From: a virus
Taxonomy: Duplodnaviria; Caudoviricetes
Reading direction: 5' to 3' (one strand)
Length of the DNA: 64,000 bases
IMG/VR virus record: IMGVR_UViG_3300009183_000045
Within the stretch, counting starts at the first letter, position 1, and every line of letters begins with the position of its first letter. A model generated the notes under the pieces. That model made no database searches, had not been told where the DNA came from, and was given only the letters and a program-made list of their open reading frames with translations. Of the stretch, positions 43,502-56,502 are shown in pieces. The translations under genes were made by a program, and so were the position numbers.

Positions 43502-46500
43502 TTAGATCCAAGCTATCGGTTTTTGATCATCTCCCGTTAAGATGTCTTCTAGATCATCTACAATGAAATTTCCTTCGGTGTCTATATTGAAAGTTATGTA
43601 TATTGGCACACTACTAACCATACCCATTAAGTTACTAACTTGACACACATAGACCCCCGAGGTTTCTGGCACAGATTTAAATATTTTATAATCAGTAAAG
43701 GCGCCACCAACTATGGGTGTATTATTATGATACCATTGATAACTAAAGGGTTGTTCGCCAGATGCTATTATAGATAAGGCACAGAAAGATCCTACATTAA
43801 TACTAAGAGCAGAAGCAGTCTGAAATATAATAGTAGGAGGCAACTTTTTAATATGTATCACTTCTGTTTGTAATTGTTTATACAAGCCGTAATCATTACC
43901 AAATATGTCACATCTCCATTGAACCATGGTACCTTTATTGGCTAATAATTTATTAACATGAGTTCCATATACATCGGATAAAAGTTCTTTTCTGTAATTA
44001 GAATCCGAAGTTTTATCTTTCCATATTACATTATTATCCTCATTAAATTTCCAAAATTGAAAATCATCTTGCTGACGCGCCAAGCCATGAGTGTTATAAC
44101 CTAATATTTCATAATCAGATTGATATGGAGTAAATTTTTGGTTTTCCTTGGTTCCTAATATAACACCAGCCTTGGCACCAGATCCATAAGGCTCCATTAT
44201 CCATTTGTTATCTATTCCATCTAATACAACGGGAGATAATTGATCCTTTTTAGTCAATCCTCTATTGCGAGATCCATACTTTTTGGGATCCAAAAACACC
44301 GCTTCACTATTAGATAAACTTATAGCCGATAAATTAGTTTGATTAACAGAATAACTATACCCTCTTCCTCTGTAGGTAGATACTCCCAAATTTTCAGGTA
44401 ACATATACCCACCTACTTCATTTTCTGTTACGGCTAAATTAGGGAAAGAAACCGTGGCTGCGGTCGGAAAAAATCTATTATCCAAATTTGCATAAGGTTC
44501 CGCAGGTTCTATAAACACACCCGAATTGAAAATTATATAATTGGATATGCATCTGTTTTTTAGATACAAATTTTCAGAATAAGAAAAAGAATTTACAGCA
44601 TAATAATGATATCTTGCTGGTTTATATTCAGAATATCCTTCTAATAAAATATCACTTAGTTCTGTAGAGCCTTGTATAATACAATCTAGTTTATTAGACC
44701 GTAAAATAGATTCTAAATTAGAATACTTCTTGTCAAATATAATTTTATTCCATTGAACAGTATTAATAGTAACATCAAAATTTAATGGTTGATCCCACCC
44801 TAAATCCAAGGCTCCAATTCTATTGTATTGAACATAATCCCCAGTGTTTAAAGACATGACAGAAATGTCTGGCTGATGGAGAGGCACATAATCATATACA
44901 AATTTAATTTGCCCAGCATAAACCACTGGGTTTGTAGGAACCTTTGCCCAAAAAGGTTTTGCCCCAAAAGAAGGGCCCACATTTAGGTTTGAAAAATTAC
45001 TCATTTCATAATCCCAACCATCCAATTTAATATTGATAGTAAATGATACACCCGGTTGATAAAATTCCACACCAGCAAAGGTGTCAATGTAGGAAGTGCC
45101 GCCTTGATGTTCGTATATTAAATAATCATTAGGTCTTAATATAATATCAGATACCAATGTAGTTTCTATCCAATTACCACTTTGATTTTTGATAGCCTTG
45201 CGCCACACCGGATAGAAGGGCACACACCCATTTATTCTTGTAGATATGTAACTTATAAAAGAATCATAATTTCCGTCCCCGGATACAAGATATTTATAAA
45301 GATTAAAATGGGTTTGATCTGAAGTAGCTATTTGTTCCATCAAGCTATTAGTTAGAGATAATTCTCCCATACTAATAGCTTGAATTTCTATACCTTTATT
45401 TTTATATTGTTTTGCTAAACTTACAATATCTGCGGAATCTTCTGTGGTAGATACCCCATCACTAATAATAACAATTTTTTGTATAGCACCTTTTTGAGGC
45501 GAATTTAAAGCCCCACTCAATTTTGATTGATTCGCCAGTGTAACATTAAGACTACTGCATAAAGTTTTTAAATCTAAAAGAGTTTTGTCTAATCCAGGAG
45601 ATGTTGGATTTAAGATATTGTCACACAAACGCAAAGCAGCTGAAAAGTTAGTTTGATAATCTGGAAATTGAGTGGGACAATTTAAAGCTTCTATTTGAAG
45701 ATTTAGTTCATACTCTTCATTGGTAAGATAGTTTACCATTACACTATTAGCAGCAAATCCTACTATAGCAACCTGCACAGATTTTTGTCTATCATAACAA
45801 ACATTTGAACCATCATTTGTGCAGGCATTAATAAGCTTAGAACATATAGTGTTTACAGCCTTTTTAACTTTATCAAAATCAAAACTTTGAGATCTGCTAT
45901 AGTCTAAGGCTATAACAATGTCATACTTTACATCATTACCATCACACATGATGGCATTTAATTTTGGATATATGTAATTGCAAACAAAATAAGGTGAAGA
46001 TTTGGCAGATATAGTATTACCAGCACCACTGGAACTATTAGTTCTAAGACCAGATCTGCAATAGGTATAACGTCGACCGGTTTTCAAAATCATTCTATCA
46101 CCTACTTCAGACAATGTAGTATCGCTGGTTTTCCATCTACCAGTACCAAACCCAATGTTTCCATCTCCTTCAGTTTGATCTAATTGAAAGAAGGAGAATT
46201 GTGGGCTATCCTTTATATTCAAGCCTCTCGTGTCTACCCAAGAACCTATAGTAAATTTATCTCCAAGACCAAAAGGATCTGCAAACAGATAGTCTGCTGT
46301 GCCGTTATAATCTGTGACCTTATTCCCTTTATGACCAATCGGTGAATAGTGTACGGCTTTACAAGAACATTGAGTCCAATAATTTTTATTAGATAAAGAA
46401 ACCGGGTTAACAAAGTCTTGGTCTTTGTAATATTCATGTGGATATGTTTTTCCATACACACAATTCTTTTCATGGTTAATATATTTAAACACCTCATCAG

Positions 46501-48409
46501 CAAAGGTATCTTCTCCGCACCATATGAAAGATATCTTCTCATTAGCATTTGCTTTAAATGATATAGAACTTTGTATTGAACCATCCACAAAATGAGAACA
46601 TTCAACGGCACTCATTTGGCCATAAATCATTATGTTTTGGGTGGTTATGTTTAAGTGACTCACCGGTTCACTTCCGTACCAGGCAGCTTCTGTTGCTTGG
46701 GTAACATCACCTCTGCTGTTTAATTTATAAATTACATCTGATGTGGAAATAGTCTGCCCGGCAACTGCACCGGCCATAGCATAAGAAGAATTAACCTCTG
46801 ATAGTCTTATAGGTAAACAATCATTTTCTGTGAAATTGGTAGGTAAAGTGTCACCAGTTGTGAAAGTTTGTACCGGCCATTGTATATTATTAGTCCCCTT
46901 GATGATTGCTAAATCTGTTCTATCAAATTTATAAACAAATGATATCTCAGTATCTATCCCCGAGTGAATTTCCGGAGTTGTATAATCATGAGTTCTTTTT
47001 ATAATGACATCTGCTTCATCAGAAAATTTACCCGCAGTGGCCCCTCTGTCTATTAAAGTACTTTGATTTAAATAAATGGGAAGGGAAGCTGTTAGAGGAA
47101 AATTTGTAGTATAATATTTGGTTAAAATGTCTACTTGTTGTTCGGTAGTTAAAGCTTTAAAGAATTTATCATTATTTCTTTCTAAATTAAAGTTTTTGAA
47201 AATCATTTCTTGGGTATCTAGGTCATACCCAACAAACGGATATAAAAACTCTGTAACCTCTCCGCCTTTTAATATGATATTAGTTCTACCGTTTACTGGT
47301 AAACTATATGGCCCTTGTAACCAAGCTCCTTCCACTGTTCCATTTTTATCAGAAAATAATAAATCAGAATTTGTGTAAGTCGAACCCGGAGTTGCTCCGG
47401 ATTGAATAAAAGAAGATTCTTGAATGTTTATAGGTGAATATGAATTATTATAAACATTATGTTTTAATTCTTGATATCCACTTGGCCATAAAAACCAATT
47501 ATCTCCCTGAGCCATTCCTACATTTAATATAAAATCTGGCTGAGCCACTTCTTCCAATTTTACAGCAGTAAGACCGTACAAGGTTTCACCTAAAAATTTT
47601 TGACTAATGGCTATTTGATTATTGATCTGAGAAGTTTGGCTGGATAAAGAGGGGTTTGAAGTTACATTAGAAAGATAATCTTTGAATATGTTAGAGAGTG
47701 GAGTGTCTGACACCCTGTCTAAAAATCTAGTAGAAATCATGCCAAGTATTTCCTTTTCAGAAAAGGGATTTACATCATCTTTTAATGGTAAAAAATCTTC
47801 TATGTGGCTATAATCCAGATATTCTTTTACATCAACACTCGGATCTGAGTCATGATAATTTGCAACATCATGCAGCTCTTCTAGTTCTATAAAGAAATCA
47901 TTTTTTATAGAACTTAATTCCGGAAACATTGTTTGTATCGGCAATGCCGGAATTTGAGTAACCAACCCGTCCCTTTGAGTAAAGGTTCTCAATACATAAT
48001 CATATAACAAAGACTCTAAACCTTTATTAGAACCTATTAAATTAAATTTATTTTTAGCTCTTTTAACAGACTCTCTTTTTGAATTTAAAACTTTGGCCAC
48101 CTCTGTAAGTTTCTTGGCAAAAAAAGGAATTGCTAAAATAAGATCTTCTTGATTATTATAATCTATATCTTTTATAAAAAGATTAGTTTCATTTTGAGCA
48201 AAAATAAAATTAAGATCTTTAATTAACTGTATAAATTCTTGTTTTAATGCCTCCTTAGCTTTAGATGAATGCTGATTTTTGTTATTGTACCATTGTTTGA
48301 GGTATTGTATATAAGCAGATTCAGAAGCCCCGTGAACATCTGCATAACTCTGTTGCATTTGCCATTGGCTAAAAGTCCATGGTGTTGAGTTTTCAGAATG
48401 ATTAGACAT
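43502..48409 (-). CDS. Large virion protein with vWA (MIDAS) domain and C-terminal Ig (I-set-like) domain
   Basis: [11 protein letters not shown] (DxSxS), TNFSAAL and IVIISDG; Ig motif [16 protein letters not shown].....[16 protein letters not shown]. Confidence 0.8.
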
Positions 48410-51078: not shown

Positions 51079-51921
51079 ATGATTAACACATTGACATACG
51101 AAGAAGCAGTTCAGAAATGCCCCGCTATTGCAGCCACCGAGCCGTCTAGCAAGGCTTCAAAAAAGTACAACTTCATCTCCACTGGAGAAATTGTTCGCAA
51201 GGCCATGGATAATGATTGGGTTATTCGAGACACTAAAGCAGGACGAGGTCTCCACGGAGTTCATACGGTAAATTTGGTTCACAAATCTCAAACAGTTGTG
51301 GACCATCAAGAAGGATTTCCTCAGATTAGCCTGATTAATAGTCATAACCTTTCTCGCAGGTTTTCCTTGTCCCTTGGATTCTTTCGCTTGGTCTGCTCTA
51401 ACGGACTAATTGCTCCCGTTGGTTTGTGTCAATCTATTCGCCCCACACTCCACCGTCAAGGTGCTTTTGGCGACGGTAATGATGTCTTGGCTCTCCTCAA
51501 TGAATCTTTTGGTCAATTTGACAACATTGTAAAACAGACCAAGACCATGAAGGAACGCCGGCTTTCCGGGGAAGAAAGGACCGTACTGGCTCGTTATGCC
51601 TACTATATCCGCTTTCGGTATCGCATGATGCAACCCAAGAAAGTAGATATGGGAGAACTTCTCAAACCTCGACGGACTGCAGATGCAGGCACAGATCTAT
51701 GGACCACTTTCAATGTGATTCAAGAAAATCTCGTCCGTGGAGGAACCCGAATTGGTAATGGTATCACCCAATTTCAGGATGAACTCCGATTCAATCAAGA
51801 ACTTTGGACCGGAGTTGATAAAGCCGTGAATCACTGTGGAACAGATCTAGAAGTAGTTCTCAAGAATCTCTTTCCCAAGAAAGAAAGGGAAAAGAAAACC
51901 TTGATCATTGGGGATAATTAA
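51079..51921 (+). CDS. DUF932/DUF945 family protein
   Basis: PQISLINSHN...FSLSLGFFRLVCSNGL and DLWTTFNVIQENLVRGG. Confidence 0.85.
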   Translation: MINTLTYEEAVQKCPAIAATEPSSKASKKYNFISTGEIVRKAMDNDWVIRDTKAGRGLHGVHTVNLVHKSQTVVDHQEGFPQISLINSHNLSRRFSLSLGFFRLVCSNGLIAPVGLCQSIRPTLHRQGAFGDGNDVLALLNESFGQFDNIVKQTKTMKERRLSGEERTVLARYAYYIRFRYRMMQPKKVDMGELLKPRRTADAGTDLWTTFNVIQENLVRGGTRIGNGITQFQDELRFNQELWTGVDKAVNHCGTDLEVVLKNLFPKKEREKKTLIIGDN

Positions 51922-51934
51922 TTATTTACAATAT

Positions 51935-52144
51935 ATGAGCCTTCAAGTTTCTTTCGAAGATTTTCACAAAATGGTGAATAAAGAATGTCTTAAACAAACT
52001 GGTTTAAACTTAATTGACATTCCCACCATATTTTGTGAAGATTTTTGGCCGGGAGATTATCAAGAAGTGGTAACAATTCAAGACGCCAAAGTGGCCATGG
52101 AATTTATTATGGAGGCCATTCTTGAAGTCCTTGAGATTAGTTGA
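51935..52144 (+). CDS. Small hypothetical protein
   Basis: Start refined to ATG 51935 (MSLQVSF). Confidence 0.55.
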   Translation: MSLQVSFEDFHKMVNKECLKQTGLNLIDIPTIFCEDFWPGDYQEVVTIQDAKVAMEFIMEAILEVLEIS

Positions 52145-52156
52145 TAAGTATTTTTC

Positions 52157-52927
52157 ATGGCAGTACATGCAAACCCACCAGCACTGATTTCAATGTCCCA
52201 GATAGTAGCAGAATTTGGAGGCACGGCCCCTCATTCTCTTTCTGAATACTACAGGAATGGTATCTATGTGGTGGGCACTGGCGCTCCTAGTGTACCAATT
52301 AGCCCAGCAGCCATTCGTTTAAGTAATTTTTACGGAGCTTCTTTGTATACTCCCGGTGAACAATCATTTTCATCAGTTGGTAATTTCAGTTTTACAGTTC
52401 CTTCTGGAGCAACAAACTTAATGGTTATGGTTGTCGGCGGCGGCGGAGGTGGCGGCGGCTGTCAAGGAAGTGGAGATAGTCACGCCGGCGGCGGCGGTGG
52501 TTCTGGTGGAAATACTGGTCTTGTTCATTTGGATGTCTCCCCTGGTCAGGTTTTTTATGGTAAAGTTGGAGCGGGGGGTCAAAACGCTGGGGTTTATTTT
52601 AATCAATGGATATTTCATAACAATAATACTTTTACAGGAACCCAGGGAGGCACCTCCACTTTTGGAACATTAAATGCAACTGGCGGCTTCGGCGGTTCTA
52701 GCAGTAATGGAGATTCCTGCACAGGGGCTTCTGGCGCTGGTGGCTCCCCAAATGGTGTAGCTGGCGGTGCTATAGATTGTAATAGAAATTCATACGCAGC
52801 CACTCAGGGCGGCTATTATGGTTATGGTGGTGGTTATGGCCGCGGAGGAAATAGTCACGGTTATGGTGGTTCAGGTATATATAACGGAACTTACGGAGGA
52901 AACGGTTATGTGTATTTATACTGGTAA
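52157..52927 (+). CDS. Glycine-rich virion/fibre protein
   Basis: N-terminal ISMSQIVAEFGG..PHSLSEYYRNG, then FTVPSGAT.LMVMVVGGGGGGG. TAAGTA lies 6 nt before the ATG. Confidence 0.75.
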   Translation: MAVHANPPALISMSQIVAEFGGTAPHSLSEYYRNGIYVVGTGAPSVPISPAAIRLSNFYGASLYTPGEQSFSSVGNFSFTVPSGATNLMVMVVGGGGGGGGCQGSGDSHAGGGGGSGGNTGLVHLDVSPGQVFYGKVGAGGQNAGVYFNQWIFHNNNTFTGTQGGTSTFGTLNATGGFGGSSSNGDSCTGASGAGGSPNGVAGGAIDCNRNSYAATQGGYYGYGGGYGRGGNSHGYGGSGIYNGTYGGNGYVYLYW

Positions 52928-52955
52928 ATGATATTGAAAATTGGGATATTAATTG

Positions 52956-52961
52956 TAAATA
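52956..52961 (+). promoter_or_regulatory. Late promoter TAAATA for hsp20
   Basis: Predicted start at about 52967, coinciding with the 5' panhandle arm. Confidence 0.55.
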
Positions 52962-52964
52962 TTA

Positions 52965-52988
52965 TTAGTTCTGGTGCTCAAGTAGACT
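52965..52988 (+). repeat. 5' arm of the inverted repeat flanking hsp20
   Basis: ttagttctggtgctcaagtagact; its core tctggtgctca (52970-52980) is the exact reverse complement of tgagcaccaga (53527-53537). Confidence 0.85.
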
Positions 52989-53002
52989 AGAATCAAAACA
53001 AC

Positions 53003-53021
53003 ACTTGCTCGAAAGAGGAGT
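53003..53021 (+). promoter_or_regulatory. Hairpin sequestering the hsp20 Shine-Dalgarno (candidate RNA thermometer)
   Basis: actt(g)ctc-GAAA-gaggagt: GNRA loop, with SD GAGGAG on the 3' strand, a bulged G and a G-U pair. Confidence 0.55.
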
Positions 53022-53027
53022 ATTAAT

Positions 53028-53516
53028 ATGACAACAAAACTAATAACTAGCACAAAGTCTCTAGCAGACACCTTGTATGGCTTCAACCAATTGCCAGCAT
53101 TGTTCAACGATAATTGGTTCCATAGTATCTTTGGTCAAGTCGACAAAGCATTTGACGCCCCCGGAGTTCACTATCCTTATAACGTCCTGGTCCATCGATC
53201 CAAGGACACAAACTCCCCATTTGAATATGAAATTCAAGTAGCTCTGGCTGGATTGAACCGAGAGGATATTAAAATTCAAGTCAAAGAAAATAAACTAATC
53301 ATTGGTATAAATCCCAAAGAAGATGATATTATTGTCGATCATTTTATTTCTTATGTTCGAAATGGTATTAGCTATAGAAGAGCTTCTTTAGAATTCAGTT
53401 TAGCTAAAGAAGTAGAACCTCAAAACATCCATAGCAAATTTAAAAACGGTTTACTAAAGGTTTATGTCCCTTTAACTAAGCAAACATCCACAGACATTAA
53501 CATCTCAGTAGATTAA
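53028..53516 (+). CDS. hsp20: Small heat-shock protein Hsp20/IbpA-like
   Basis: YPYNV...YEIQVALAGLNREDIKI.V.EN.LII, RNGISYR.....FSLA..V......KFKNGLLKVYVP. Confidence 0.92.
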   Translation: MTTKLITSTKSLADTLYGFNQLPALFNDNWFHSIFGQVDKAFDAPGVHYPYNVLVHRSKDTNSPFEYEIQVALAGLNREDIKIQVKENKLIIGINPKEDDIIVDHFISYVRNGISYRRASLEFSLAKEVEPQNIHSKFKNGLLKVYVPLTKQTSTDINISVD

Positions 53517-53543
53517 AGTCCTTGCCTGAGCACCAGAGACTAA
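53517..53543 (+). repeat. 3' arm of the inverted repeat flanking hsp20
   Basis: agtccttgcctgagcaccagagactaa, directly after the stop codon and before the terminator. Confidence 0.85.
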
Positions 53544-53548
53544 CTTTT

Positions 53549-53584
53549 AAACTTGAGTATTTTAATTAATACTCAAGTTTTTTA
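53549..53584 (+). terminator. Rho-independent terminator after hsp20
   Basis: 13-bp stem aaacttgagtatt-ttaatt-aatactcaagttt plus a T-run. Confidence 0.8.
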
Positions 53585-53592
53585 TTTTTACA

Positions 53593-53604: not shown

Positions 53605-54510
53605 ATGGCTATTCATAATGACACCGCTCCTATTAAAATGTCTCAAATTGCTGCTGAATTTAGCCAGACATTTTCTAATATGCATTTAAAATCATATTAC
53701 AGAGGAGGTGGTATTGTTGGGACCAATAACACCAATGTGCCAGTGTCTCCTAATCCTATAGGTGTAAAAAGTTTCTACGGAGCAGCAGCTGCTTTTACAT
53801 ACTCAGACATAATAGCCAGTGATACATACTATTATGATTTATACAGTGTTGCGGTTGCGGCTGGGTGGAATAAAGTAATTCCTTTAAAGTTCTCAGCAAC
53901 AATAAATAACGGTGTTGTAGTGGGTAGTGGCCCGGCGACAATACCTTGGTACTGGCTCAAGCAGGCATTTTATGTCCAGGGAACATTTCCCGCCGGTAGT
54001 GAAATAACTATATATAACAATGGTTATATAGTGGGCCAGGGCGCTTGTGGCGGCGGCGGCGGCCAATGGCCTTGGGAAAACAGCGGCGCAGGTCAAGGTG
54101 CTGGATGGCCTGGTTATAACGGGTGGGATGCTCTTTATGTTGAAACTCCAGTCATTATTTATAATTACGGGACTATTGGCGGCGGCGGCGGCGGCGGAGC
54201 CGGTGGAAAAAGTGCCGACAGTGGTCGCGAGTTATGGAACCGAGCCGGCTCCGGCGGCGGCGGTGCTGGAGCAGCTCCCTGTAATAATTATGTGTCGACC
54301 CCGGGAACTTTAACAACTGGAGGTGCAGGTTCTGATCCCATTGGAACTGACCCAGCTCGGGGCACGCGTGGGGGTAATGGTGGAAACCTTGGCTATGCCG
54401 GTGAAAGTATGTTTGGCATCGCTGGTGGCTCAGCTGGTAAATGTGTAATAGGAAATCAATATATTACTTGGGCAGTCACAGGTACTCGCCTCGGGCTAAT
54501 TACAAATTAA
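53605..54510 (+). CDS. Glycine-rich virion/fibre protein (paralog of 52157 N-terminus and 34124 C-terminus)
   Basis: IKMSQIAAEF....HLKSYYRGG; IYNNGYIVGQGACGG; IYNYGTIGGGGGGGAGG. Confidence 0.75.
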   Translation: MAIHNDTAPIKMSQIAAEFSQTFSNMHLKSYYRGGGIVGTNNTNVPVSPNPIGVKSFYGAAAAFTYSDIIASDTYYYDLYSVAVAAGWNKVIPLKFSATINNGVVVGSGPATIPWYWLKQAFYVQGTFPAGSEITIYNNGYIVGQGACGGGGGQWPWENSGAGQGAGWPGYNGWDALYVETPVIIYNYGTIGGGGGGGAGGKSADSGRELWNRAGSGGGGAGAAPCNNYVSTPGTLTTGGAGSDPIGTDPARGTRGGNGGNLGYAGESMFGIAGGSAGKCVIGNQYITWAVTGTRLGLITN

Positions 54511-54591: not shown

Positions 54592-54798
54592 ATGGGCTTT
54601 CGTATTGATCCAGTAGATAAAGGGGGCGTATTTGATCATGATTTTTATACGTCTGAAAATTACACAAATGAAGTAAAGACTTTGATGTATTATTTAGAGG
54701 CAGAAGGATTTAACAGAAAACAAGAATCATTTTCTATCATGGTACAAGGTAGGACCTGGTTAGTAAAGCCTCATGAAACACCTCCAAAGAAAAAATGA
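54592..54798 (+). CDS. Small hypothetical protein
   Basis: 68 aa; TAAATA (54581-54586) 5 nt before the ATG. Confidence 0.6.
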   Translation: MGFRIDPVDKGGVFDHDFYTSENYTNEVKTLMYYLEAEGFNRKQESFSIMVQGRTWLVKPHETPPKKK

Positions 54799-55306: not shown

Positions 55307-56095
55307 TTAGAAAGTCAATTCTACCCCAGCACTAGCAATCCAGAAATTAGGCTTCTCTGCATTCACCTTCTTGTCTGTGAATAAACGCGTCAGACTGGTA
55401 TTCAGACTAACATTCTTTGCAATCTCTGTAGATGCTTCAAGACCTACAGTAGTATAGCTACACTTCTGATTTGCAGCATAGAAACCATCTGTACCGTAAT
55501 TTACATTAACTGGTAACACGAATGTGGTCTTGTAAGCCTTACCAACTGTAGGAGCAACTCCTACCTGATAGAAGGTCCCACGACCAGAGCCTTGACCAGG
55601 AGTTCCTGCCAATCCCTTATAGACGGAGACATGAGGATCCAATCCCAACAAGCCCCTATAATCCAGGGTCAAATCTACAGCCTGGCTGCTACCCTTTTCA
55701 CTATTAGGACTAGTGTTAGAATGATAAGAGGGGGTCAATGTAAAATTACCCCTAGTCAAACCAACTCCTACGACTACTTCTGAACGAACCCAATCATTTA
55801 GGACTGCATTAGGATTTGAGAACTGCCTTGTGGAGACATCCACAGAAGCGGAATCAATTCCGTAAGCATGGACCTCAAAAGGAAGACTCAAATTGAGGTA
55901 GGTTTGTGTGGATGATGTGGAATCTAGATGCACTCCCTTATAGGTGTATCCGTTGGATACATCCACCCCAAAGGAACCATTTACTGGTAGTAATCCCTTT
56001 TCTGTAGAGGTGAGAGGCTTGCTCGGGGTTCCGGCCTGAGCGGTTAAGGCAGCTGCAATAAGAGCTGCCACGGCATATGTTTGTGTTTTTGTCAT
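55307..56095 (-). CDS. Outer-membrane beta-barrel (porin-like) protein
   Basis: Signal peptide MTKTQTYAVAALIAAALTAQA|G, alternating amphipathic strands, and C-terminal BAM-type motif WIASAGVELTF. Start could be 56095 or 56110. Confidence 0.75.
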   Translation of the reverse strand: MTKTQTYAVAALIAAALTAQAGTPSKPLTSTEKGLLPVNGSFGVDVSNGYTYKGVHLDSTSSTQTYLNLSLPFEVHAYGIDSASVDVSTRQFSNPNAVLNDWVRSEVVVGVGLTRGNFTLTPSYHSNTSPNSEKGSSQAVDLTLDYRGLLGLDPHVSVYKGLAGTPGQGSGRGTFYQVGVAPTVGKAYKTTFVLPVNVNYGTDGFYAANQKCSYTTVGLEASTEIAKNVSLNTSLTRLFTDKKVNAEKPNFWIASAGVELTF

Positions 56096-56193
56096 ATGAT
56101 TTGTTTTCATGTAGAATGTACTACACATTTTTTATTTTAAAGCTTTCTCGGAAAACGTCACGTGTGTTTTTACGTTCTGTTATAAATTATAGT

Positions 56194-56502
56194 ATGTCCG
56201 AATTTGAAGACTTCGCTAATGACGCCCTTGAAAATTTAAGAAGGGAGAGGAATAAATTCATGGCTCCAAAAGTTACAGAAACTTATATTCAGCCGGATGA
56301 AAAGGATTCAGATCCTACACCACCCTCTTTGGCTTACCTGGAACAATGTTGTCCAGAATCAGCTAATAGAAAAAAAGAAGATCCCAAAGATCGAAAAAAA
56401 AAATTACTAGATGATTTTATAATCACTATAGTTAATCAGTATCCTGAAAGTATTAGATCTCAAATTTTAGAGGAAGTAAAAAAATCTACTTCCGCGCCTT
56501 GA
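56194..56502 (+). CDS. Hypothetical protein
   Basis: Start refined to ATG 56194 (MSEFEDF), after TATAAATT. Confidence 0.55.
   Translation: MSEFEDFANDALENLRRERNKFMAPKVTETYIQPDEKDSDPTPPSLAYLEQCCPESANRKKEDPKDRKKKLLDDFIITIVNQYPESIRSQILEEVKKSTSAP

What the first reader, a model, noticed from the sequence alone, without database searches (positions are those of the whole stretch)
52956..53584. hsp20 transcript with complementary 5' and 3' ends (long-range RNA panhandle)
Seen in sequence: the hsp20 ORF is bracketed by an inverted repeat. The 11-bp core tctggtgctca (52970-52980) pairs perfectly with tgagcaccaga (53527-53537). Pairing extends outward (ttagt / actaa, with a bulge) and inward (gact 52985-88 / agtc 53517-20). 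The 5' arm begins just downstream of a TAAATA late box (52956) and the 3' arm lies between the stop codon and the terminator (53549-53584), so the arms are the first and last nucleotides of the predicted monocistronic mRNA. Inference: the mRNA closes into a loop around a 489-nt ORF, which could control stability or nuclease processing, or act as a heat-melted translational switch. A DNA-level alternative is that the arms are the ends of a cassette inserted between two paralogous glycine-rich genes. I do not know of this being described for phage hsp20.
Basis: partly seen in the sequence, partly recalled or inferred. Interest (0 to 1): 0.8.

Follow-up and report, generated by a model that had tools for sequence, protein, structure and literature searches.

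The report
Phage hsp20 mRNA with paired ends

Summary
The 11-nt inverted repeat lies exactly where stated and is the core of a 14-bp helix with one bulged G (52967-52980 with 53527-53541).

Comparative evidence:
- All 22 homologous loci with a 3' arm can form a 16-22 bp duplex of -22 to -35 kcal/mol. Ten of these loci were fetched afterwards as a held-out test.
- In the first set, 13 of 19 pairs show changes on both sides.
- Cognate arms beat non-cognate arms in all 50,000 permutations.
- The helix starts 5 nt after a conserved TAAATA late-promoter box, at the predicted first nucleotide of the transcript.

The helix is too stable to act as a thermometer: its predicted probability is 1.00 from 10 to 45 C. 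A separate SD-masking hairpin (53003-53021), with a UUGCU motif and an invariant bulged G, is the ROSE-like thermosensor candidate.

Sister clades and cultured Kyanoviridae phages keep the same leader plan but pair the 5' end with a local partner. The common denominator is therefore a sequestered 5' end. I infer that the panhandle protects a translationally gated mRNA from nucleases. This function is untested.

The cassette alternative is rejected. The scan has noted ROSE-like hsp20 leaders on other phage DNA before, but not the panhandle.

The parts
52956..52961 (+). TAAATA box, a T4-type late-promoter -10-like element
   Evidence: It is conserved exactly 5 nt upstream of the helix start in 10 of the 11 group 1/3 loci where a box could be read; L128 differs by 1 nt and L135 is too short (L158's box read by eye). 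It is also present in the 10 held-out loci. RTAAATA is enriched in the 3% of the window that is non-coding: 16 of 94 copies lie there. The window is a T4-like myovirus, with a gp23-like head protein and a gp6-like baseplate wedge.
52967..52985 (+). 5' arm: the first ~19 nt of the predicted mRNA. Window pairs are 52967-52980, with an extension at 52985-52988.
   Evidence: See the anchored pair table, duplex folds, the whole-mRNA MFE and centroid, and RNAalifold.
52968..52993 (+). Alternative local 5' hairpin HP1 (52968-52975 with 52986-52993, -7.3 kcal/mol). It is mutually exclusive with the panhandle and is probably a co-transcriptional, metastable form.
   Evidence: It is predicted in all leaders. 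It is homologous to the strong local hairpin of group 2 and of cultured phages. Natural variants at 52986 and 52989 fall in its 3' strand.
53003..53021 (+). ROSE-like SD-masking hairpin HP2: ACUU[G]CUC, a GAAA loop, then GAGGAGU. The bulged G is 53007 and the SD is 53015-53020.
   Evidence: The bulged G is invariant in 21 of 21 leaders. Pairs at -4, -3, -1, +1 and +3 covary. Stability is -4.8 kcal/mol at 37 C and -9.2 at 15 C. The motif matches the definition in PMC11342760.
53028..53516 (+). hsp20 ORF (162 aa, alpha-crystallin domain)
   Evidence: Pfam PF00011 at 6.9e-14 and phrog_432 at 4.8e-16.
53527..53541 (+). 3' arm in the 3' UTR: TGAGC ACCAGA [G] ACT, with the bulged G at 53538. An inner extension AGTC lies at 53517-53520.
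   Evidence: Close relatives in four DNA runs show no variant inside the arm cores, while the CDS carries about 14.
53549..53590 (+). Intrinsic terminator: a 13-bp stem, 6-nt loop and T-rich tail, 7 nt after the 3' arm
   Evidence: In the first set three of the other four group-1 loci have a terminator-like hairpin right after the arm, and L128 has a strong hairpin with a short T run; most marine group-3 loci have none within 130 nt.

Best explanation
The hsp20 gene is transcribed from a T4-type late promoter as a monocistronic mRNA. The 5'-terminal ~14-22 nt of that mRNA base-pair with a 3'-UTR segment that lies 0-12 nt after the stop codon and, in this clade, just before the terminator. This closes the message into a panhandle.

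Shown here:
- The helix is conserved, and it is maintained by compensatory changes.
- It begins at the nucleotide predicted to be +1.
- It competes with a weaker local 5' hairpin.

A second, independent module precedes the start codon: a ROSE-like hairpin with a UUGCU motif and a bulged G opposite the SD.

Inferred mechanism:
- The local hairpin forms first, during transcription.
- Once the 3' arm is made, it invades through the hairpin loop and gives the far more stable end-to-end duplex.
- The duplex hides the 5' end from 5'-end-dependent decay (RppH, the RNase E 5' sensor, or RNase J) and ties down the 3' UTR.
- A late mRNA that is poorly translated while the thermometer hairpin is closed is thereby kept intact until it is needed.

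My odds: about 0.9 that the RNA helix is real and under selection, about 0.8 that HP2 is a ROSE-like occluder of the ribosome site, and about 0.45-0.5 that end protection is the function. The confidence given for this entry is for the whole statement, function included.
For: Structure:
- All 12 first-set loci pair with 17-22 bp at -22.8 to -30 kcal/mol.
- The anchored table shows 19 positions almost always paired, 13 of them with double changes. Pairing stops exactly at idx -10/-11, which is upstream of TAAATA + 5 nt.
- 95% of cells are paired, against 32-52% in slid controls. No column shuffle of 2000 reaches the observed values.
- Cognate arms average -23.7 kcal/mol and non-cognate arms -14.4; 0 of 20,000 permutations match.
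- RNAalifold on an unsupervised MAFFT alignment of the full mRNA recovers the helix, with 6 doubly changed pairs.
- The MFE and centroid folds of the 624-nt window mRNA both contain it.
- Its predicted probability is 1.00 in 9 of 9 homologues.

Held-out replication: 10 of 10 new loci pair at -23.5 to -34.5 kcal/mol, starting at nt 1-3. They carry new compensations (U-A to C-G at idx -4; U-A to C-G or A-U at idx -7). 0 of 50,000 permutations match.

Strand: there are 31 G.U pairs against 4 A.C mismatches in the duplexes.

Function:
- Group 2 and the cultured Kyanoviridae phages keep the promoter, a 5'-terminal hairpin and HP2, but pair the 5' end locally.
- L152 has the window's own arm sequence (GUCUGGUGCUC) paired with a local partner.
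- 5'-terminal base pairing is an established block to RNase E-dependent decay (Bouvet and Belasco 1992, as cited in PMC3997798).
- A 14-bp 5'/3'-UTR interaction protects B. subtilis hbs mRNA (PMC5737220).
Against: - There is no RNA evidence. Transcript ends are inferred from promoter and terminator motifs only.
- The protective function is an inference from architecture.
- The marine group-3 loci lack an obvious terminator after the arm, so their 3' ends are unknown.
- L002/L129 carry an uncompensated A.A mismatch in the middle of the helix.
- A local hairpin would suffice for 5' protection, as in group 2. This leaves unexplained why a 550-nt-range partner is kept in two clades.
- A perfect ~20-bp duplex is also a potential RNase III substrate.
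- The G.U versus A.C asymmetry is partly inflated by an ambiguous U.G/bulge assignment and by shared ancestry.
Confidence: 0.5

Rival explanations
1. The end-to-end duplex is a double-strand-specific nuclease (RNase III) site. Its cleavage matures or destroys the mRNA, as in S. aureus icaR, where 5'/3'-UTR pairing creates an RNase III target.
For: The duplex is 16-22 bp, about two helical turns, with conserved small bulges (a bulged G at 53538; a bulged U or mismatch at idx -1) that could steer cleavage. icaR is the precedent (PMC3868564).
Against: Clades that lack the 3' arm replace it with an 8-11 bp local hairpin, which is too short for RNase III. This points to 5'-end sequestration as the shared role. 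Unlike in icaR, the arm does not touch the SD.
Confidence: 0.15
2. The panhandle is a translational latency or heat switch. In this view, closing or opening the ends changes access to the ribosome-binding site. It would work hok-like (tac/fbi), or by the arms melting on heat shock.
For: The architecture resembles hok: a 5' element with a local metastable partner and a 3'-UTR partner (PMC9841398). In 3 of 9 homologues, removing the 3' UTR in silico raises SD accessibility.
Against: The core helix has predicted probability 1.00 from 10 to 45 C. There is no conserved complementarity between the 5' arm and the anti-SD strand, or between the released HP1 strand and the SD/AUG. The CAAGT/ACTTG pairing seen in the window is absent in L128, L132 and group 3. 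SD accessibility is unchanged in 6 of 9 homologues.
Confidence: 0.08
3. The pairing acts between molecules or through loops. Either a 3'-UTR-derived small RNA pairs in trans with hsp20 5' ends, or two local hairpins kiss through complementary loops without forming the extended duplex.
For: In marine group 3, both the 5' and the 3' UTR can form local TTTTAG/CTAAAA hairpins whose loops are complementary.
Against: Group 1 has no conserved local 3' hairpin. The outer positions idx -9 and -8 lie outside the local 5' stem, and they covary with the 3' arm, not with the local partner. Cis pairing is entropically favoured and is predicted at probability 1.00.
Confidence: 0.05
4. The repeat is a DNA-level feature: the arms are terminal inverted repeats or recombination sites of a mobile hsp20 cassette.
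For: The flanking gene content varies. The glycine-rich genes are present in the window and L001 and absent elsewhere. Contig breakpoints lie near 52955 and 53509 in two runs.
Against: The arms lie inside the promoter-terminator unit at a fixed 5 nt from the promoter box. No transposase or target duplication is present. Synteny around hsp20 is otherwise conserved, and the glycine-rich genes are the inserts. Helix positions drift freely while staying complementary, with G.U pairs far outnumbering A.C mismatches on the sense strand. The homologous 5' arm pairs locally in group 2.
Confidence: 0.03

Closest known systems
hok mRNA tac/fbi end-pairing with a metastable 5' hairpin (hok/sok, plasmid R1; PMC9841398)
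   Same: A 5'-terminal element pairs with a 3'-UTR element of the same mRNA. The same 5' element can first pair with a segment immediately downstream during transcription. The end-pairing stabilises the full-length RNA, and phylogenetic covariation supports it.
   Different: In hok the pairing indirectly locks the SD through a ucb/anti-SD exchange and is released by 3' trimming. Here no conserved alternative pairing to the anti-SD exists, a terminator hairpin follows the 3' arm, and the gene encodes a chaperone in a lytic phage, not a toxin.
B. subtilis hbs mRNA 5'/3'-UTR interaction (PMC5737220)
   Same: A ~14-bp long-range duplex between the UTRs of a short monocistronic mRNA with a strong SD, which limits endonuclease access to the leader.
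   Different: The hbs pairing overlaps an internal RNase Y site and does not include the very 5' end. Its conservation by covariation across many taxa has not been reported in what I read. The host nucleases differ.
S. aureus icaR 5'/3'-UTR pairing (PMC3868564)
   Same: The 3' UTR pairs with the 5' UTR of the same mRNA.
   Different: The icaR 3' UTR pairs with the SD itself, blocks translation and recruits RNase III. Here the SD is masked by its own local hairpin, and the long-range arm is 25 nt upstream of it.
ROSE-like RNA thermometers of small-heat-shock genes (PMC11342760, PMC3669281)
   Same: HP2 has the U(U/C)GCU motif imperfectly paired with the SD, a bulged G flanked by a U.G and a C-G pair, and marginal stability. 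It sits before an hsp20-family gene.
   Different: It does not match the Rfam ROSE models. It is in a phage late mRNA. In some relatives the masked sequence is an AU-rich stretch or the AUG itself, not an SD. Temperature response is untested.
5'-terminal stabilising stem-loops (ompA leader; Bouvet and Belasco 1992, cited in PMC3997798)
   Same: Base pairing of the first nucleotides of the mRNA. Group 2 and the cultured relatives use exactly such a local hairpin.
   Different: In the window's clade the pairing partner lies ~550 nt away in the 3' UTR.

Membership tests
Bacterial mRNA 5'/3'-UTR long-range interaction (hok, hbs, icaR type) | Complementary segments lie in the 5' and 3' UTR of one transcription unit | tested here: met
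   the arms lie between the TAAATA box and the terminator.
Bacterial mRNA 5'/3'-UTR long-range interaction (hok, hbs, icaR type) | The pairing is maintained in evolution by compensatory changes | tested here: met
   13 of 19 pairs have double changes, 22 of 22 loci pair, and the held-out set confirms it.
Bacterial mRNA 5'/3'-UTR long-range interaction (hok, hbs, icaR type) | The interaction and the transcript ends are shown on RNA in vivo or in vitro | not testable with these tools
   No RNA run holding the stretch was listed.
hok-type tac/fbi switch | The 5' element has an alternative partner that frees or locks the SD | tested here: not met
   no conserved arm to anti-SD pairing; the effect on SD accessibility is inconsistent.
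hok-type tac/fbi switch | A metastable local hairpin uses the same 5' element | tested here: met
   a local HP1 is predicted in all 12 group 1/3 leaders (-3.5 to -11.3 kcal/mol) and is weaker than the panhandle.
ROSE-like RNA thermometer | A U(U/C)GCU motif pairs imperfectly with the SD in the 5' UTR of a heat-shock gene | tested here: met
   UUGCU in group 1 and UCGCU in group 3, opposite GAGGAG or AAGGAG. The definition comes from PMC11342760.
ROSE-like RNA thermometer | A bulged G lies opposite the SD | tested here: met
   the G is invariant in 21 of 21 leaders and is flanked by covarying pairs.
ROSE-like RNA thermometer | The sequence matches the curated Rfam ROSE covariance models | tested here: not met
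   no ROSE hit at E up to 10 in the window region or up to 1 in 8 loci.
ROSE-like RNA thermometer | Translation rises with temperature | not testable with these tools
   Only predicted energies are available: -4.8 kcal/mol at 37 C and -9.2 at 15 C. SD unpaired probability is 0.05 at 10 C and 0.26 at 45 C.
T4-type late promoter | A TATAAATA-like -10 element lies about 5-7 nt before the start, with no -35 element | tested here: inconclusive
   The TAAATA box is conserved at fixed spacing and enriched in non-coding DNA, and the phage is T4-like. The start site itself is not mapped, and I did not look for a gp55 homologue.
Terminal inverted repeats of a mobile element | A transposase or recombinase cargo, target-site duplication, and the same ends around varied cargo | tested here: not met
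   hsp20 is the only cargo, there is no duplication, and the arms were found only at hsp20.

The most novel reading that the evidence does not exclude
The panhandle and the ROSE-like hairpin together form a ribosome-independent storage state. In this reading the late promoter fills the cell with hsp20 mRNA that is closed at both ends and poorly translated in the cold. Warming opens the SD hairpin. Terminating ribosomes then repeatedly unzip the inner half of the end-helix, because the stop codon lies only 0-12 nt from it. Stability would thus be high when the message is idle and handed over to ribosome protection when it is in use. This would be a closed-loop logic not described for bacterial or phage mRNAs.
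Probability: 0.22. Interest if true: 0.8.

Novelty: new variant of a known kind. Interest (0 to 1): 0.62.

Why it matters
Well-supported pairing between the two ends of a bacterial-type mRNA is known from only a handful of cases (hok, hbs, icaR). In the literature I searched I found no such case in a phage late gene.

This case comes with unusually clean comparative evidence and a natural control. Sister clades and cultured phages have the same leader but a local partner. That makes a direct question testable with simple reporters: what does tying the 5' end to the 3' UTR add over an ordinary 5' hairpin?

The finding also shows that the leader plan of late promoter, 5' hairpin and ROSE-like hairpin is shared by hsp20 genes of marine and freshwater T4-like phages. 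This suggests that these phages gate a chaperone by temperature.

Tried and rejected
- No whole genome is held for this window.
- GenBank phages have no DNA similarity to the locus.
- Rfam gave no meaningful hit.
- A 14-mer scan for the 3' arm in IMG/VR returned over 100 scattered chance hits. The 16-mer of the SD hairpin found only the same three contigs plus unrelated matches.
- No RNA holder was listed for the stretch, so no transcript ends could be read.
- Laying four DNA runs gave no variants inside the arm cores, so it provided no population-level covariation.
- The 5' arm is also complementary to the left half of the window's terminator (52976-52983 with 53551-53558). This is absent in the relatives' terminators.
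- ORF 56077-56502 had a stronger flank duplex energy than hsp20, but it has no discrete inverted repeat and its flanks lie inside other ORFs.
- The G.U versus A.C count in the first set alone (8 vs 5) did not decide the strand. The larger set is more asymmetric.
- MAFFT misaligned the SD hairpin between groups, so I tabulated it by anchoring on the bulged G.
- I did not use the count of structure pairs, because it needs a 614-character structure string. I ran equivalent controls in Python instead.

Full report
WHAT IS THERE

The window is part of an uncultured freshwater T4-like myovirus. It has a gp23-like major head protein and a gp6-like baseplate wedge. Only freshwater or lake DNA runs hold the stretch.

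The ORF at 53028-53516 encodes a 162-aa Hsp20/alpha-crystallin protein. The inverted repeat is exactly as described: TCTGGTGCTCA at 52970-52980 and TGAGCACCAGA at 53527-53537. Read as RNA, the helix in the window runs from 52967 to 52980 and pairs with 53527-53541, with a single bulged G at 53538. An inner GACU/AGUC extension follows. A 13-bp intrinsic terminator lies at 53549-53580.

IS IT MORE THAN CHANCE?

In the window alone it is suggestive. Among 49 ORFs, hsp20 has the longest perfect complement between its flanks (11 nt; the next are 9 and 8). Its flank duplex energy ranks second. The decisive evidence is comparative.

The first set of homologous loci came from IMG/VR and JGI metagenomes. 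They fall into three groups:
- Group 1: freshwater, 59-74% amino-acid identity.
- Group 3: marine, about 42% identity.
- Group 2: 42-47% identity.

All 12 distinct group 1 and group 3 loci pair a 25-nt 5' segment with a 26-nt 3'-UTR segment, giving 17-22 bp at -22.8 to -30 kcal/mol. The arms themselves are only 63-79% identical to the window's.

I anchored the arms on the invariant G of GCUC. From position -9 to +9, 19 positions are paired in nearly every sequence, and 13 of them show at least two Watson-Crick pair types reached by changes on both sides. Examples:
- L128 has CUGGUGCUCUGUU opposite AACAGAGCACCAG.
- L132 has UCUGGGGCUCUUGUG opposite CACAAGAGUCCCAGA, with GAU/AUC replacing AGU/ACU.
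- The marine group has UAGUUUUAG[U]GCUCAACAAA opposite UUUGUUGAGCCUAAAACUA.

Controls:
- 95% of cells are paired, against 32-52% when the partner is slid by 1-3 nt.
- 13 doubly changed columns are seen, against 2-5 in the slid controls.
- No column shuffle of 2000 reaches the observed values.
- Cognate arm pairs average -23.7 kcal/mol and non-cognate pairs -14.4; 0 of 20,000 permutations match.
- RNAalifold on an unsupervised MAFFT alignment of the whole ~600-nt mRNA predicts the same long-range helix, with six doubly changed pairs.
- The MFE and centroid folds of the window's 624-nt transcript both close on it.

HELD-OUT TEST

After fixing the model, I searched the 5.8-billion-protein collection and found 182 relatives at E <= 1e-20. 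I then fetched DNA for ten new proteins.

All ten loci show the duplex at -23.5 to -34.5 kcal/mol. It starts at nucleotide 1-3 of the transcript predicted from the promoter box. They carry compensations not seen before:
- U-A to C-G at position -4 in L168, L169 and L175.
- U-A to C-G at position -7 in L172 and L173, and to A-U in L174.

The cognate versus non-cognate test gives 0 of 50,000, both for the ten alone and for all 22.

WHERE THE HELIX STARTS

A TAAATA box lies exactly 5 nt upstream of position -9 in 10 of the 11 group 1 and group 3 loci where a box could be read (L128 differs by 1 nt; L135 is too short), and by eye in L158. Pairing is kept at -9 in 12 of 12 loci, but not at -10 (7 of 12) or -11 (4 of 12).

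T4 late promoters are a -10-like element at the position of the bacterial -10 (PMC7892883). The T4 consensus TATAAATA at -13 to -6 is from my memory.

RTAAATA is enriched in the 3% of the window that is non-coding. It sits 5-6 nt before the ATG of seven other genes, which independently suggests a start about 5-6 nt after the box. The helix therefore begins at the predicted first nucleotide. This is an inference: no RNA data were available.

A SECOND, SEPARATE MODULE

Positions 53003-53021 form ACUU[G]CUC, a GAAA loop, then GAGGAGU. This is a hairpin that masks the SD.
- Across 21 leaders the bulged G is invariant.
- Pairs at -4, -3, -1, +1 and +3 covary.
- Positions -3 to +3 are paired in 100% of sequences.
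- Stability is marginal: -3 to -5 kcal/mol at 37 C and -6 to -9 at 15 C.

This matches the published definition of ROSE-like thermometers: U(U/C)GCU imperfectly paired to the SD, with a bulged G flanked by U.G and C-G (PMC11342760). The Rfam ROSE models do not match it. In group 2 the masked strand is UAAUAAUA or includes the AUG itself.

NATURAL CONTROLS

Group 2 has no 3' arm; its flank duplex energies are only -6 to -17 kcal/mol. Its 5' end forms a strong local hairpin that starts at the predicted +1 (-8.8 to -11.9 kcal/mol). In L152 the 5' strand is GUCUGGUGCUC, the window's arm, paired with a local GAGGUCAGAC.

Cultured Kyanoviridae phages have the same plan of TATAAATA, local 5' hairpin, A-rich spacer and ROSE-like hairpin. 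I checked Pelagibacter phages Mosig and HTVC008M, Methylophilales phage Melnitz, and cyanophages P-RSM6 and P-SSM7. None has a long-range duplex above shuffled background.

Groups 1 and 3 can also form the local hairpin, but weakly (-3.5 to -7.3 kcal/mol in most). Positions -9 and -8 covary with the 3' arm and not with the local partner.

On the Hsp20 tree the 22 uncultured sequences form one clade. Group 1 (support 92/94) and group 3 (100/100) are separated by group 2. The panhandle was therefore either ancestral and lost, or gained twice from homologous sequence.

MECHANISM

Shown: a conserved end-to-end RNA helix, a competing local hairpin, and an independent SD hairpin.

Inferred:
- The local hairpin forms co-transcriptionally.
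- The 3' arm nucleates on its loop and displaces it. This is analogous to the metastable hairpin and tac/fbi end-pairing of hok mRNA (PMC9841398).
- What is common to all clades is that the first nucleotides are base-paired. I therefore favour protection from 5'-end-dependent decay. 5'-terminal base pairing is an established block to RNase E (Bouvet and Belasco 1992, cited in PMC3997798), and hbs gives a precedent for a UTR-UTR duplex limiting endonuclease access (PMC5737220).
- Protection would matter most for a message whose ribosome site is masked.

The panhandle itself is not a thermometer. Its core has predicted probability 1.00 from 10 to 45 C in 9 of 9 homologues.

It is not a consistent SD switch either. 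Removing the 3' UTR in silico changes SD access in only 3 of 9 homologues.

RIVALS

- RNase III target, icaR-like: possible given ~20 bp, but it fits poorly with the short local hairpins of sister clades.
- Loop-loop kissing or trans action: plausible only for marine group 3, whose 3' UTR has its own hairpin with a complementary loop.
- DNA-level cassette ends: contradicted by several lines. The arms lie between promoter and terminator. The spacing to the promoter box is fixed. Synteny is conserved (DUF932, a ~65-aa ORF, hsp20, a ~66-aa ORF and a ~148-aa ORF), with the glycine-rich genes as the inserts. Complementary positions drift freely. There are 31 G.U pairs against 4 A.C mismatches on the sense strand. 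That asymmetry is a modest argument, because some U.G pairs are ambiguous with the bulge and the sequences are related.

NOVELTY

UTR-UTR pairing in bacterial mRNAs is a known kind. My searches of the held literature found nothing on such pairing in phage hsp20 genes or on ROSE-like control of them.

The scan's own earlier notes report ROSE-type leaders on phage hsp20 in at least eight other genomes, but none reports a panhandle.

I class this as a new variant of a known kind. It is well supported structurally and open functionally.

Noticed in passing
window 3444, 17837, 28948, 43502-48409(-), 53605, 54592, 58343 (gene starts): An RTAAATA late-promoter-like box ends 5-6 nt before the ATG of seven genes. 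If transcription starts ~5-6 nt after the box, these late mRNAs are leaderless or nearly so. hsp20, with a 61-nt structured leader and the window's clearest SD, is the exception.
   Followed up: partly
window 52157-52927 and 53605-54510: The two glycine-rich, tail-fibre-like genes that flank hsp20 are absent from most relatives. There, hsp20 sits between homologues of 51908-52144 and 54592-54798. The glycine-rich genes are therefore the inserted elements, each with its own RTAAATA box.
   Followed up: partly
window 53086-53092 with 53112-53118: RNAalifold predicts a conserved 7-bp hairpin inside the CDS (ACCAAUU/AAUUGGU, in the codons for NQLPALFNDNWF). One pair switches A-U to G-C through synonymous changes, split between groups 1 and 3. 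The evidence is weak: one covarying pair and one event.
   Followed up: no
window 52976-52983 with 53551-53558: The 5' arm (GCTCAAGT) is also complementary to the left half of the window's own terminator stem. This is not conserved in the relatives' terminators and is probably coincidental.
   Followed up: yes
window 52955 and 53509 (runs X6, X8): One contig in a lake run joins a different upstream sequence directly before the TAAATA box. Another joins a sequence ending GGACTTACTAAA to 53509, so the last three hsp20 codons, the 3' arm and the terminator follow a different gene end. This may be an hsp20-less or divergent variant. Each is a single low-depth contig.
   Followed up: no
L147, L149, L150, L152, L153 (group 2b leaders): The bulged-G hairpin homologous to the ROSE-like element pairs CAUA with UAUG. 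It masks the start codon in leaders that have no SD at all.
   Followed up: partly
L134, L137, L139, L155, L158 (marine group 3): No terminator-like hairpin lies within 130 nt after the 3' arm. The 3' UTR has its own TTTTAG/CTAAAA hairpin whose loop is complementary to the loop of the 5' hairpin. A kissing complex is an alternative to the extended duplex there.
   Followed up: partly
L160-L165 (cultured Kyanoviridae: Mosig, HTVC008M, Melnitz-3, P-RSM6, P-SSM7): The hsp20 genes of cultured marine T4-like phages carry TATAAATA, a 5'-terminal hairpin and a CUUUGCUU or CUCGCUU/AAGGAG bulged-G hairpin. This is an apparently undescribed ROSE-like leader in phages that can be grown and tested.
   Followed up: partly
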